DNA of 64,000 nucleotides, taken from the sequence record OQ845958.1; one strand, 5' to 3'. This document shows positions 32,227-33,537 of the stretch, one piece after another. This DNA is from Escherichia phage pEC-M719-6WT.2. How positions within the stretch are numbered: the first letter of the stretch is position 1; each line of letters opens with the position of its first letter. The position numbers were made by a program, and so were the translations under genes. The notes under the pieces are model-generated. The model saw only the letters and a program-made list of their open reading frames with translations. It was not told where the DNA came from and did no database searches.

Positions 32227-32227
32227 G

Positions 32228-32258
32228 TGTTTACAACGGCAATGGATTGCCGTATGAT
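32228..32258 (+). promoter_or_regulatory. early promoter (GTTTACA, 17 nt, TATGAT) with hairpin in spacer
   Basis: spacer contains perfect hairpin CGGCAA-tgga-TTGCCG; followed by conserved leader CCTCATCAACTACTGA. Confidence 0.45.
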
Positions 32259-32298
32259 TACCTCATCAACTACTGATGAATAACTTAAGGATATTAAA

Positions 32299-32541
32299 AT
32301 GGAAACATTAATTGCAGGTACTGTTGTTCTTGGTGCTGGTTCTTTCTTCCTGGCTGCACTGGCATATTTTCTGCCGTGGATTATCGCGCTACTGCGAGGA
32401 ACCAAAAGTAATTGCGGAATCTTCTTTGTTAACCTCCTGTTAGGTTGGACAATGGTCGGATGGTTTATTGCATTTATTTGGGCACTCGTTGCTGAGCGTA
32501 AATCAAATGCACATGTAATTATCATCAAGGAAACCAAATGA
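32299..32541 (+). CDS. two-helix membrane protein, putative superinfection immunity (Imm-like)
   Basis: 80 aa; two transmembrane helices; lies directly beside gene 43 where T4 imm sits. Confidence 0.45.
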   Translation: METLIAGTVVLGAGSFFLAALAYFLPWIIALLRGTKSNCGIFFVNLLLGWTMVGWFIAFIWALVAERKSNAHVIIIKETK

Positions 32542-32681
32542 AGATAATTACAATTATTGTACTGATTGCATTTTTTAGTATGTCAATCTATTGGGCAATA
32601 ATGACTCCGCATATGATTCCAACTTTAATTTTGGGTTGGATATTTTTGGGACTCCAAGCTCGCTATGAATGTTTTAATTGA
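32538..32681 (+). CDS. small membrane protein (47 aa)
   Basis: hand-translated; ATGA overlap with upstream gene. Confidence 0.3.
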   Translation: MKIITIIVLIAFFSMSIYWAIMTPHMIPTLILGWIFLGLQARYECFN

Positions 32682-32691
32682 GGAAAATACA

Positions 32692-33195
32692 ATGAAAAAG
32701 TTAGCTATCGCAGCTGTTATGCTGCTATCCGGTTGTGCTTACCAGGGTGATGTAGTTAATGCCAGTGAGATTGGTAAAGCAAGAATTGCTGCAGACCGTC
32801 AGGTGCATAATGGTTCCTTTGATTTCAAAGGTGGTACTGGACTTATCTACAAACGCGACAACAATCAATGTGGAAATAACTGCGCAAAATATGCTCAACA
32901 AGAAATTGAGTACAAACGCGAGCAAGCTGCAAAGCATGACGAAATCATTGCCAAGCTGGAAGCAGAAACTAAGCGACAAAATGACCTGGACACTGTTAAC
33001 CAGATTTCACAGGTATGCATGTCATATATCAATATGCAGATAAACATCATGCGTGCAGAAGCTTATCAGGCAGCGGAGACGGGTTCTCCAAAAGCCAATG
33101 AGTATCGCGATATGTATCAGCGTTCTGCTCAAAACCGTCTGAGCTATATTAATAAATGTATAGCTAAAGAGAAAGCACGCCAAGGTATTAACTGA
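32692..33195 (+). CDS. lipoprotein with coiled-coil region
   Basis: 167 aa from ATG 32692 (SD GAGGA); signal peptide with lipobox LLSGC. Confidence 0.5.
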   Translation: MKKLAIAAVMLLSGCAYQGDVVNASEIGKARIAADRQVHNGSFDFKGGTGLIYKRDNNQCGNNCAKYAQQEIEYKREQAAKHDEIIAKLEAETKRQNDLDTVNQISQVCMSYINMQINIMRAEAYQAAETGSPKANEYRDMYQRSAQNRLSYINKCIAKEKARQGIN

Positions 33196-33302
33196 TGCTA
33201 TTATTACTTCTGATTGTTGGAACAGTAATTGGTTTGCTGCTATTAGAAAAGCGTAATAAGCATTTGGCTGAAGAAAACTGGAAACGTGGAAACGTTTACT
33301 AA
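33195..33302 (+). CDS. small membrane peptide (35 aa)
   Basis: hand-translated; single TM helix. Confidence 0.25.
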   Translation: MLLLLLIVGTVIGLLLLEKRNKHLAEENWKRGNVY

Positions 33303-33329
33303 ATTACTCTGAACTGCGAGAAAAATATT

Positions 33330-33458
33330 ATGATTGATATGCTATTGATTAGTCTGTGGCTGTTGTCTGCATTTGGTATTGGTTTTATGTACTGGTGGGA
33401 CAAACGTCAGACCCGGAAGATTGTTGAACGTGCAATTAATCGTGGATTTAATCGTTAA
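33330..33458 (+). CDS. small membrane peptide (42 aa)
   Basis: hand-translated; single TM helix. Confidence 0.25.
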   Translation: MIDMLLISLWLLSAFGIGFMYWWDKRQTRKIVERAINRGFNR

Positions 33459-33537
33459 TTGCTCTAAAAATACAGTGATATAATTATCCTATCTTAAACC
33501 TGTGAGAAAAATATAATGGTGCCTATGGAAAAAATGA

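What the first reader, a model, noticed from the sequence alone, without database searches (positions are those of the whole stretch)
32227..33537. No gene 42, beta-gt, alpha-gt or dam at their T4 positions, yet a gp56-like dCTPase is kept
Synteny with T4 is otherwise close. The 43-to-uvsX interval (32227-33537) holds only an Imm-like membrane protein, a lipoprotein and small TM peptides, where T4 carries imm, 42 (dCMP hydroxymethylase) and beta-gt. The 47-to-55 interval (21686-22927) lacks alpha-gt, and the 61-to-56 interval (39910-40310) lacks dam. This suggests the phage does not make glucosyl-hmC DNA by the T4 route. However 40311-40829 encodes a clear gp56-like dCTP pyrophosphatase, which in T4 exists to exclude cytosine from DNA. 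Either the modification genes sit elsewhere, a different cytosine modification is used, or gp56 here acts mainly as a dUTPase/MazG-like enzyme.
Basis: partly seen in the sequence, partly recalled or inferred. Interest (0 to 1): 0.55.

Follow-up and report, generated by a model that had tools for sequence, protein, structure and literature searches.

The report
T4-like phage probably using 5-methylcytosine
This T4-like coliphage (genus Gaprivervirus) really has lost every known gene for making hydroxymethyl- or sugar-modified cytosine, yet it keeps the enzymes that destroy ordinary cytosine, most likely because its relatives' "thymidylate synthase" has been converted into an enzyme that methylates dCMP, so that the DNA would carry 5-methylcytosine in place of cytosine.

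Summary
The window is a Gaprivervirus, 95.7% identical to phage TH40. The 43-uvsX interval holds only imm, a 47-aa peptide, a lipoprotein and two tiny membrane ORFs. Genes 42, beta-gt, alpha-gt and dam are missing from the whole window and from the complete genomes of SP18 and TH40. A gp56 dCTPase (68.6% identical to T4), DenB and Ndd are intact.

The sister genus Dhakavirus (JS98, VR5) carries a five-gene, ~4.1 kb arabosyl-5-hydroxycytosine module at exactly this spot. Here it is cleanly absent.

The puzzle is already published: papers from 2021 and 2025 suggest an "unknown base", and a 2019 restriction study reports that VR7 has modified, non-glycosylated cytosines.

My proposed answer was not found in the searched literature. 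The only thymidylate-synthase-family gene of Gapriverviruses ("td", outside this window) has Asp at the position of E. coli ThyA Asn177. That change is the classic switch from dUMP to dCMP as substrate. Leu143 and all catalytic residues are kept, which predicts a dCMP methyltransferase and 5mC DNA, as in Xanthomonas phage XP12. All five Gapriverviruses checked have Asp; 116 other T4-type Td clusters have Asn.

The prediction is inferred, not shown. Nucleoside LC-MS would settle it.

The parts
29512..32226 (+). gene 43 DNA polymerase (left anchor of the interval)
   Evidence: 904-aa ORF. 99.6% identical to SP18 gp43 and 78% to JS98 gp43.
32299..32541 (+). imm, superinfection immunity membrane protein
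   Evidence: Pfam PF14373 E=9.5e-18. 50.6% identical to T4 Imm.
32538..32681 (+). 47-aa membrane peptide (called 42.1 in VR7; like JS98 orf44)
   Evidence: phrog_3610 E=1e-26. 59% identical to JS98 orf44. VR7 annotation.
32665..33195 (+). 176-aa lipoprotein-like ORF (like JS98 orf43; N-terminus like T4 imm.1)
   Evidence: phrog_1754 E=2.5e-47. 52% identical to JS98 orf43. imm.1 N-terminal match E=1.7e-4.
32993..33473 (.). stretch between the two anchors conserved with JS98; the place where the sister genus carries its ~4.1 kb five-gene cytosine-modification module
   Evidence: Window 32288-32992 aligns to JS98 imm-orf44-orf43. Window 33474-33533 aligns at 93% to the 60 bp upstream of JS98 uvsX. 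The anchors lie 4572 bp apart in JS98 and 482 bp apart here. No remnant of the module was found at E<=50.
33195..33302 (+). 35-aa hydrophobic ORF, no family match
   Evidence: Absent from SP18 and JS98.
33330..33458 (+). 42-aa hydrophobic ORF, no family match
   Evidence: Absent from SP18.
33538..34716 (+). uvsX recombinase (right anchor)
   Evidence: 392-aa ORF, 99.5% identical to SP18 UvsX.
21652..22927 (+). 55-to-47 interval: a-gt.5, a-gt.4, a-gt.3, a-gt.2 and 47.1 only; no alpha-gt and no mobB
39910..40310 (.). 61-to-56 interval without dam; holds only a 75-aa minus-strand ORF (40028-40255)
   Evidence: No Dam hit. phrog_2024, function unknown.
40311..40829 (+). gene 56 dCTPase/dUTPase (all-alpha NTP pyrophosphohydrolase)
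   Evidence: 68.6% identical to T4 gp56 and 85% to JS98 gp56. Pfam dUTPase_2 26.6 bits, above the 22.9 cutoff. phrog_173 E=3e-45. dN/dS 0.09-0.21.
57313..57867 (+). denB, endonuclease IV (specific for cytosine-containing ssDNA in T4); intact but strongly diverged
   Evidence: phrog_1360 E=9e-80. 96% identical to SP18 DenB but only 46-49% to T4 and JS98 DenB, which are 72% identical to each other. The T4 Ser176 equivalent is kept.
60028..60477 (+). ndd, nucleoid disruption protein
   Evidence: 62% identical to T4 Ndd and 75% to JS98 Ndd.

Best explanation
The window comes from a Gaprivervirus, a T-even lineage that has lost the module for a thymidylate-synthase-like dCMP hydroxylase or hydroxymethylase plus glycosylation genes. 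Its relatives carry that module between gene 43 and uvsX. The lineage most likely replaces cytosine with 5-methylcytosine instead.

Proposed pathway:
1. gp56 (in the window) hydrolyses dCTP and dCDP to dCMP and keeps cytosine out of DNA.
2. The phage's only thymidylate-synthase-family enzyme is the gene annotated td. It lies outside this window and was seen in the closest complete genomes. It carries Asp at the position of E. coli ThyA Asn177 and keeps Leu143. It is therefore predicted to methylate dCMP to 5-methyl-dCMP, with the adjacent frd recycling dihydrofolate.
3. gp1 and host NDP kinase raise 5-methyl-dCMP to 5-methyl-dCTP, and gp43 incorporates it.
4. DenA, DenB, Alc and Ndd can then go on attacking or silencing host cytosine DNA while sparing the phage genome.
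5. dTMP would come from Cd deaminating 5-methyl-dCMP, from host ThyA, or from Tk salvage.

Shown: the gene absences, the intact gp56, DenB and Ndd, and the Asp177 signature restricted to Gapriverviruses. Inferred: the enzyme's product, complete replacement of cytosine, the source of dTMP, and that this window's own genome carries the same td allele.
For: 1. No gp42, JS98 orf38-42, alpha-gt, beta-gt or Dam in the window or in the complete SP18 and TH40 genomes. TH40 is 95.7% identical to the window over 61.9 kb.
2. A thymidylate-synthase-family HMM finds exactly one gene in SP18 and one in TH40, namely td, and none in the window.
3. That Td has Asp at Asn177 in SP18, VR7, MN01, TH40 and CJ20, which form two Td sublineages only 85% identical to each other. 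Leu143, Cys146, His147, Arg21, Glu58, Trp80, Tyr94, Arg126/127, Arg166, Ser167, Asp169, His207 and Tyr209 are all kept.
4. Among the 120 best 90%-identity clusters of T4-type Td, only the four Gaprivervirus clusters have Asp; the other 116 have Asn. The Gaprivervirus clusters also differ at positions that are otherwise at least 97% conserved (F149L, Q162L, A179G, A182G and others). T4 and JS98 Td have Asn.
5. Td evolved faster in this lineage. T4-JS98 identity is about 83%, against about 69% for SP18 versus either.
6. [quoted passage not shown] Natural Asp177 homologs from XP12 and 5 of 7 metagenomic enzymes make 5mdCMP, and T4 gp1 phosphorylates it (bioRxiv 10.1101/2024.12.05.627091). An acidic residue at 143 marks the hydroxymethylases (PMC13326640).
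7. Experiment in the literature: VR7 DNA "has modified cytosines", is not glycosylated, and is described separately from hydroxymethylated T4 147. The assay used EcoRII, SalI and Csp6I with and without T4 beta-glucosyltransferase (PMC6326788). VR7 has the same 43-imm-42.1-lipoprotein-uvsX layout as the window.
8. gp56 shows dN/dS of 0.09-0.21, and its alleles are shared with Dhaka- and T4-type phages.
9. The proteins that must read the modified base are the diverged ones. gp1 and Alc are about 50% identical in all three comparisons among T4, JS98 and SP18. DenB is 47-49% identical to the others. These sit at the 6th to 10th percentile of the SP18-JS98 proteome (median 76.7%). gp56, which handles unmodified dCTP, sits at the 80th percentile.
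10. CpG methylation is reported to block Alc (Kashlev 1993, as cited in PMC8056088).
Against: - The td gene is not in this window, so its allele here is inferred from relatives.
- No nucleoside analysis of any Gaprivervirus was found, and the VR7 restriction figure itself could not be seen.
- Asp177 predicts substrate preference, not a measured activity. 2 of 7 natural Asp177 enzymes tested by others did not yield 5mdC.
- With its only thymidylate synthase turned over to dCMP, the phage needs another dTMP source, which is assumed here.
- Fully 5mC DNA should be a target of E. coli McrBC, McrA and Mrr. Yet these phages grow on K-12 and B strains, and no arn homolog is annotated.
- It is untested whether DenA, DenB and gp56 spare 5mC substrates.
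Confidence: 0.6

Rival explanations
1. The phage DNA contains ordinary cytosine. gp56 works essentially as the phage's dUTPase, as presumed for RB49- and RB43-type phages. DenB and Alc either no longer discriminate against cytosine or are neutralised in some other way.
For: gp56 and denA homologs do occur in T4 relatives with canonical DNA that transduce host markers (PMC8056088; PMC2993671). gp56 belongs to the dimeric dUTPase / PRA-PH superfamily. DenB is strongly diverged in this genus.
Against: - VR7 DNA is reported to carry modified cytosines.
- In the 2010 survey, denB and alc had the same distribution as gene 42. Both are kept here.
- gp56 alleles are exchanged with cytosine-excluding phages and are under purifying selection.
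- This reading does not explain a conserved Asp177 in the only thymidylate synthase across two sublineages.
Confidence: 0.13
2. Cytosine is replaced by hmC, 5-hydroxycytosine or a new hypermodified base made by an enzyme unrelated to thymidylate synthase, or too diverged to recognise, encoded among the hypothetical genes.
For: Two papers propose an unknown non-canonical base for this genus. Many small ORFs have no known function.
Against: - The ORFs present in SP18 or the window but absent from JS98 are all small, or are homing endonucleases, internal head proteins, nrdD/nrdG or a tail-knob protein. None has the size of an enzyme of unknown function.
- The thymidylate-synthase HMM finds only td.
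- Leu143 is kept, which argues against a hydroxymethyl product.
- VR7 was reported as non-glycosylated and was not classed with hmC DNA after treatment with T4 beta-glucosyltransferase.
Confidence: 0.12
3. Cytosines are methylated after replication by a phage DNA methyltransferase at specific sites, so the DNA is only partly modified.
For: Blocking of EcoRII and SalI could in principle come from site-specific methylation.
Against: - No Dam homolog and no methyltransferase in the annotations of SP18, VR7, RZ or MN01.
- A crude motif scan of all TH40 ORFs of at least 80 aa found no ORF combining the methyltransferase motifs.
- A published homology search found no known modification enzyme in this genus.
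- Partial methylation would not protect the genome from gp56-driven dCTP starvation.
Confidence: 0.05

Closest known systems
Xanthomonas phage XP12 (and Pseudomonas phage PaMx74): complete replacement of C by 5-methylcytosine through a thymidylate-synthase-homolog dCMP methyltransferase
   Same: The predicted chemistry and logic are the same. A TS-family enzyme with Asp at the Asn177 position and a hydrophobic residue at 143 makes 5mdCMP, which is then phosphorylated and incorporated. A dCMP-family deaminase can supply thymidylate.
   Different: The phage lineage is unrelated, and XP12 is not a T-even phage. In Gapriverviruses the enzyme appears to have arisen inside the T4-type Td clade: 69% identical to T4 Td, with the same insertions and the same frd-td position. 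It works alongside the T4 host-shutoff set (gp56, DenA, DenB, Alc, Ndd). Its activity has not been measured.
Phage T4 glucosyl-hydroxymethylcytosine system (genes 56, 42, 1, alpha-gt, beta-gt, plus denA, denB, alc)
   Same: gp56, gp1, denA, denB, alc, ndd and cd are present, and the genome is otherwise syntenic.
   Different: The defining enzyme gp42 and both glucosyltransferases are absent from the whole genome, and so is Dam.
RB69 / Dhakavirus arabinosyl-5-hydroxycytosine module (flavin-dependent 5hodCMP synthase, UDP-arabinose genes, arabinosyltransferase)
   Same: Same genomic address. In JS98 and VR5 the module sits between the lipoprotein gene and uvsX, flanked by sequences conserved with the window.
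   Different: All five genes are missing here without trace. VR5, which has the module, has glycosylated DNA, whereas VR7, which lacks it, does not.
RB49/RB43-type T4 relatives (Krischvirus, Pseudotevenvirus) with canonical cytosine
   Same: They lack gene 42 and the glucosyltransferases but keep gp56 and denA.
   Different: Those phages also lack denB and alc and are efficient transducers. Gapriverviruses keep denB, alc and ndd.

Membership tests
Genus Gaprivervirus (Tevenvirinae) | High nucleotide identity and synteny with classified members | tested here: met
   97% identity over 6 kb to MN01, TH40 and RZ, and 96.6% to SP18. 95.7% identity over 61.9 kb to TH40.
T4-type glucosyl-hmC pathway | dCMP hydroxymethylase (gene 42) | tested here: not met
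   No tblastn hit in the window (best E=0.27), in SP18 (E<=1) or in TH40 (E<=1e-3). The thymidylate-synthase HMM finds only td.
T4-type glucosyl-hmC pathway | alpha- and/or beta-glucosyltransferase | tested here: not met
   No hits in the window, SP18 or TH40.
T4-type glucosyl-hmC pathway | dCTPase gp56 | tested here: met
   Window 40311-40829, 68.6% identical to T4 gp56 over its full length. Matches Pfam and PHROG families.
RB69/Dhakavirus arabinosyl-5-hydroxycytosine pathway | 5hodCMP synthase (like RB69 gp48 / JS98 orf39) plus UDP-arabinose and transferase genes (JS98 orf38, orf40-42) | tested here: not met
   None of the five JS98 proteins hits the window, SP18 or TH40. No remnants at the junction.
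XP12-type 5-methylcytosine replacement | Thymidylate-synthase homolog with Asp at E. coli ThyA Asn177 | tested here: met
   Met in five Gapriverviruses, including the closest relatives TH40 and MN01, and unique among 120 T4-type Td clusters. The gene lies outside this window, so for this genome it is inferred.
XP12-type 5-methylcytosine replacement | Hydrophobic residue at position 143 (methyl rather than hydroxymethyl product), with catalytic Cys146 and the folate- and phosphate-binding residues intact | tested here: met
   Leu143, Cys146, His147, Arg21, Glu58, Trp80, Tyr94, Arg126/127, Arg166, Ser167, Asp169, His207 and Tyr209 are all conserved. The rule is taken from PMC13326640.
XP12-type 5-methylcytosine replacement | Enzyme actually converts dCMP to 5-methyl-dCMP | not testable with these tools
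   Needs recombinant enzyme, or co-expression with T4 gp1 in vivo followed by LC-MS, as in bioRxiv 10.1101/2024.12.05.627091.
XP12-type 5-methylcytosine replacement | Virion DNA has 5mC in place of C | not testable with these tools
   Only indirect evidence exists. VR7 is reported to have modified, non-glycosylated cytosines that were not classed as hmC.
All-alpha NTP pyrophosphohydrolase / dimeric dUTPase superfamily (gp56) | Profile match above the curated threshold | tested here: met
   PF08761 dUTPase_2 scores 26.6 bits against a cutoff of 22.9. PRA-PH scores 19.1 bits, below its cutoff.
T4 Dam methylation | Dam methyltransferase gene | tested here: not met
   No hit in the window, SP18 or TH40. 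RZ carries a mobB-like HNH gene at that position instead.

The most novel reading that the evidence does not exclude
Gapriverviruses are T-even coliphages whose genomes have cytosine fully replaced by 5-methylcytosine. The base would be made by a resident T4-type thymidylate synthase re-tooled by N177D (plus nearby changes) into a dCMP methyltransferase, after loss of the ancestral hydroxylase/hydroxymethylase and glycosylation module. gp1, DenB and Alc would have co-evolved to the new base, and thymidylate would be made by deaminating 5-methyl-dCMP or by the host.
Probability: 0.55. Interest if true: 0.72.

Novelty: new variant of a known kind. Interest (0 to 1): 0.6.

Why it matters
The T-even phages are the textbook case of cytosine replacement, and two versions are known: glucosyl-hmC, and arabinosyl-5-hydroxycytosine described in 2026. 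A third version using plain 5-methylcytosine would show that the base can be swapped while the whole machinery for excluding cytosine and shutting off the host stays in place (gp56, DenA, DenB, Alc, Ndd). It would also show that the swap can come from one substrate-switch residue in an existing enzyme.

It would answer a question that two published comparative papers left open. It would explain the odd behaviour of VR7 towards restriction enzymes and BREX. It matters for judging these phages for therapy, because transduction risk and sensitivity to Type IV restriction both depend on the base.

It would also give an easily grown E. coli phage as a source of fully 5mC DNA, and a natural set of kinase, nuclease and transcription-terminator variants tuned to 5mC rather than hmC.

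If the prediction fails, the puzzle of how a phage with an active dCTPase, DenB and Alc replicates without gene 42 remains open and is still worth solving.

Tried and rejected
- **Remnants of gene 42 or beta-gt in the interval.** I looked with tblastn at E<=50 and found none.
- **Relocated modification genes.** I searched the whole window, SP18 and TH40 and found none.
- **A Gaprivervirus-specific enzyme.** I listed ORFs of the window and of SP18 that have no JS98 homolog. Only small ORFs, homing endonucleases, internal-protein-like genes, nrdD/nrdG and a tail-knob protein turned up. The JS98 structural region was not fetched, so structural genes appear falsely as "specific" and were ignored.
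- **The SP18 gene described as similar to a chlorovirus protein.** I considered it as a modification candidate. It is a mobB-like HNH endonuclease.
- **Gaprivervirus-specific active-site changes in gp56.** None is consistent, because the alleles are mosaic with Dhaka- and T4-type alleles.
- **Methyltransferase motifs in TH40 ORFs.** A crude regex scan gave no convincing candidate. A full Pfam scan of the proteome was not run.
- **Original VR5/VR7 papers (Arch Virol 2010 and 2011).** They are not held in the library.
- **Literature on 5mC in this genus.** Searches for Gaprivervirus with cytosine, 5-methylcytosine with Tevenvirinae, and dCMP methyltransferase found no paper that assigns 5mC to it.
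- **Not attempted.** Structure prediction of Td and analysis of restriction-site avoidance, because neither would be decisive.
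Full report
**What the window is.** The 64-kb window is part of the early-gene region of a T4-like coliphage of the genus Gaprivervirus (Tevenvirinae). The stretch 30000-36000 is 97.4% identical to Escherichia phage MN01, 97.3% to TH40, and 96.6% to RZ and to Shigella phage SP18. Across the whole window, 61.9 kb aligns to TH40 at a mean identity of 95.7%. 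Nearly all genes lie on the + strand. They run from vs.1 and tk through the nrdC region, nrdD/G, 49, 55, 47, 46, 45, 44, 62, regA, 43, imm, uvsX, 40, 41, 61, 56, soc, modA/B, dda, dexA, motB, 39, rIIA, rIIB, denB, ndd, 52 and motA.

**Checking the observation.** T4 gp42, beta-gt, alpha-gt and Dam have no tblastn match anywhere in the window; the best chance hit is E=0.27.
- The 43-to-uvsX interval holds imm (PF14373), a 47-aa peptide (phrog_3610), a 176-aa lipoprotein-like ORF (phrog_1754) whose N-terminus resembles T4 imm.1, and two hydrophobic ORFs of 35 and 42 aa.
- The 55-to-47 interval has only a-gt.5, a-gt.4, a-gt.3, a-gt.2 and 47.1.
- The 61-to-56 interval has only a 75-aa minus-strand ORF of unknown function.
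- gp56 at 40311-40829 is full length and 68.6% identical to T4 gp56. It matches the dUTPase_2 / PRA-PH all-alpha NTP pyrophosphohydrolase families.

It is also a property of the genus. About 32 independent isolates share the interval, and VR7, SP18 and RZ are annotated with the same gene order.

**Is anything hiding elsewhere in the genome?** The window covers only part of the genome, so I fetched the complete genomes of SP18 and of TH40, the closest relative, and searched them in six frames. Neither holds a homolog of gp42, alpha-gt, beta-gt or Dam. Both hold gp56, alc (plus a partial N-terminal duplicate), denA, denB, ndd, cd, gp1 and one td.

**What the sister genus has at this locus.** T4 is not the most informative comparison here. 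In the sister genus Dhakavirus (JS98, VR5), the space between the lipoprotein gene and uvsX holds five genes (JS98 orf42 to orf38):
- a 557-aa nucleotidyltransferase/kinase-like protein;
- a small protein annotated as phosphoheptose isomerase;
- a P-loop kinase-like protein;
- a divergent thymidylate-synthase homolog, 24.5% identical to T4 gp42;
- a 297-aa protein.

These are annotated as counterparts of RB69 ORFs. A 2026 paper shows that RB69 makes arabinosylated 5-hydroxycytosine with a flavin-dependent TS homolog (gp48) and names Dhakaviruses among the carriers of this cluster (PMC13326640).

None of the five proteins hits the window, SP18 or TH40. The flanks are conserved. Window 32288-32992 aligns with JS98 imm-orf44-orf43, and window 33474-33533 aligns at 93% with the 60 bp upstream of JS98 uvsX. 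The two anchors are 4572 bp apart in JS98 and 482 bp apart here, and no remnant of the module is left. T4, RB69 and JS98 all have a TS-homolog module at this address, so loss in the Gaprivervirus lineage is the simplest reading. This step is inference.

**What was already known.** The paradox is published. A 2021 comparative study notes that Gapriverviruses lack any known base-modification enzyme yet keep DenA, DenB, Alc and the dCTPase, and suggests an unknown protein (PMC8056088). [quoted passage not shown]

There is also experimental evidence. In a BREX study, DNA of VR5 and VR7 was digested with EcoRII, SalI, MboI, Csp6I and Eco32I, with or without prior treatment with T4 beta-glucosyltransferase. 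VR5 is the Dhakavirus with the module; VR7 is the Gaprivervirus without it. The authors conclude that VR5 and T4 are glycosylated, that T4 147 is hydroxymethylated, and that "VR7 has modified cytosines" in unglycosylated DNA (PMC6326788). I could not see the gel.

**The new lead.** I built an HMM from E. coli ThyA, the Td of SP18 and JS98, T4 gp42 and JS98 orf39. I searched it against all ORFs of SP18, TH40 and the window. It finds exactly one TS-family gene per genome, the gene annotated td next to frd. That Td has Asp at the position of E. coli ThyA Asn177: the motif reads LGLPFDIGSY, against LGLPFNIASY in E. coli, T4 and JS98.

The Asp is present in SP18, VR7, MN01, TH40 and CJ20. These represent two Td sublineages that are only about 85% identical to each other. 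Every catalytic, phosphate-binding and folate-binding residue I checked is kept, including Leu143, Cys146 and His147. Among the 120 best 90%-identity clusters of T4-type Td in a 5.8-billion-protein collection, only the four Gaprivervirus clusters have Asp; the other 116 have Asn. The Gaprivervirus proteins also differ at several positions that are otherwise at least 97% conserved, including F149L, Q162L, A179G and A182G.

Td is usually very conserved: T4 and JS98 are about 83% identical. The Gaprivervirus protein is only about 69% identical to either, although for typical proteins SP18 and JS98 are each other's closest relatives. This points to accelerated change in this lineage. The closest solved structure is T4 thymidylate synthase 1TIS.

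In a survey of the 150 best 50%-identity representatives, the Leu143/Cys146/Asp177 combination appears in seven other, unrelated clusters. It is therefore a recurrent natural class.

**What Asp177 means.** According to the literature retrieved:
- Natural Asp177 homologs from XP12 and 5 of 7 metagenomic phage enzymes made 5mdC when co-expressed with T4 gp1. A linked deaminase is proposed to make dTTP from 5mdCTP (bioRxiv 10.1101/2024.12.05.627091).
- A bulky hydrophobic residue at position 143 excludes water, whereas the hydroxymethylases have Asp or Glu there (PMC13326640).

The Gaprivervirus Td thus carries the signature of a dCMP methyltransferase, not of a hydroxymethylase or a hydroxylase.

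**The proposed mechanism.**
1. gp56 removes dCTP and dCDP and supplies dCMP.
2. Td(Asp177) methylates dCMP, and Frd recycles dihydrofolate.
3. gp1 and host NDP kinase produce 5m-dCTP, and gp43 incorporates it.
4. DenA, DenB, Alc and Ndd act on host cytosine DNA.
5. dTMP comes from Cd acting on 5m-dCMP, from host ThyA, or from Tk salvage.

This accounts for the VR7 digests as I read them. The enzymes blocked by C5 methylation would fail, Csp6I would cut, and beta-glucosyltransferase would have no effect. That reading of the digests is my inference; the paper states only its conclusions.

**Supporting patterns.**
- gp56 is under purifying selection, with dN/dS of 0.09-0.21 in every pair.
- Its alleles are mosaic across genera. 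The window's allele is 85% identical to that of JS98, and VR7's allele contains T4-like blocks next to a segF homing endonuclease. A protein that is freely exchanged with cytosine-excluding phages is unlikely to have been turned into a pure dUTPase.
- The proteins that must recognise the modified base are the diverged ones. gp1 and Alc are about 50% identical in all three comparisons among T4 (glucosyl-hmC), JS98 (arabinosyl-5hoC) and SP18. DenB is 72% identical between T4 and JS98 but only 47-49% identical to the Gaprivervirus protein.
- In the SP18-versus-JS98 proteome (median identity 76.7%), gp1, DenB and Alc fall at the 6th, 9th and 10th percentiles, and gp56 at the 80th. This is suggestive, not proof.
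- Methylation of CpG is reported to block Alc (cited).

**Weak points.**
- The td gene lies outside the window, so its allele in this genome is inferred from relatives.
- No activity or nucleoside data exist for the enzyme or the DNA.
- Two of seven natural Asp177 enzymes tested by others gave no 5mdC.
- The source of thymidylate is assumed.
- Fully methylated DNA should attract McrBC, McrA and Mrr, yet these phages grow on K-12 and B strains and no arn homolog is annotated.
- Whether gp56, DenA and DenB spare 5-methyl substrates is unknown.

**Rival explanations.**
- Unmodified cytosine, with gp56 acting only as a dUTPase. This conflicts with the VR7 digests, with the retention of denB and alc, and with the conserved Asp177.
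- An unrecognised enzyme making hmC, 5hoC or a new base. No candidate ORF exists, and Leu143 argues against a hydroxymethyl product.
- Site-specific methylation after replication. No methyltransferase is annotated or found by a crude motif scan, and it would not rescue the phage from dCTP depletion.

**Verdict.** It is a genus-level feature, and the literature already flags it as unexplained. The specific proposal, 5-methylcytosine made by an N177D thymidylate synthase, was not found in the literature I could search. It is directly testable by LC-MS. I rate it a new variant of a known kind: XP12-type replacement inside a T-even phage.

Noticed in passing
window 7193-7939 (- strand): A 248-aa ORF lies on the opposite strand to the surrounding early genes. 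It has a short collagen-like Gly-X-Y run and an Sf6-type tail needle knob domain (PF16532, E=5e-32; phrog_1030). It is absent from SP18 and JS98 and present in only about 8 Gaprivervirus records, including RZ, TH40, vB_YenM_P8 and ECML-359. A P22/Sf6-type knob domain is unexpected in a T4-like myovirus.
   Followed up: partly
window 57313-57867; SP18 L007:38568-39122: Gaprivervirus DenB is only 46-49% identical to T4 and JS98 DenB, which are 72% identical to each other. It has a 14-residue C-terminal extension, and the Ser176 equivalent is kept. gp1 and Alc are about 50% identical in all three comparisons among T4, JS98 and SP18.
   Followed up: partly
L015:3001-3858 (TH40) versus L007:14065-14925 (SP18): Two td sublineages about 85% identical to each other coexist within a genus whose genomes are otherwise about 95-97% identical. 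TH40, CJ20 and vB_YenM_P8 form one; SP18, VR7 and MN01 belong to the other. Both carry Asp177.
   Followed up: partly
window 15559-17843: nrdD and nrdG (anaerobic ribonucleotide reductase and its activase) are present here and in SP18. They gave no tblastn hit in the fetched JS98 regions, and JS98 annotates none between 55.8 and 49.
   Followed up: no
L001:22566-23315 (phage RZ): RZ carries a 250-aa mobB-like HNH homing-endonuclease gene in the 61-to-56 interval, where T4 has dam. VR7 has segF next to gene 56, and VR5 has mobE there. This spot is a hot-spot for homing endonucleases and probably drives the mosaic gp56 alleles.
   Followed up: partly
L009:3792-4310 (VR7 gene 56): In the VR7 gp56 translation, a short stretch near residue 140 (HFLVFNMLLVLICSAQQ) departs from the conserved HFVLNMFxGLGxxAEE. 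It looks like a local double frameshift or a sequencing error.
   Followed up: no
L007:8588-8821 (SP18); TH40 12526-12690: A partial duplicate of the N-terminal third of alc lies immediately upstream of the full-length alc gene in Gapriverviruses.
   Followed up: no
window 24181-24405 and 37068-37307: Two small ORFs (46.1-like and 61.4-like) are 97-100% identical at protein level to JS98 but have no counterpart in SP18. This indicates recent exchange between Dhaka- and Gapriverviruses.
   Followed up: no
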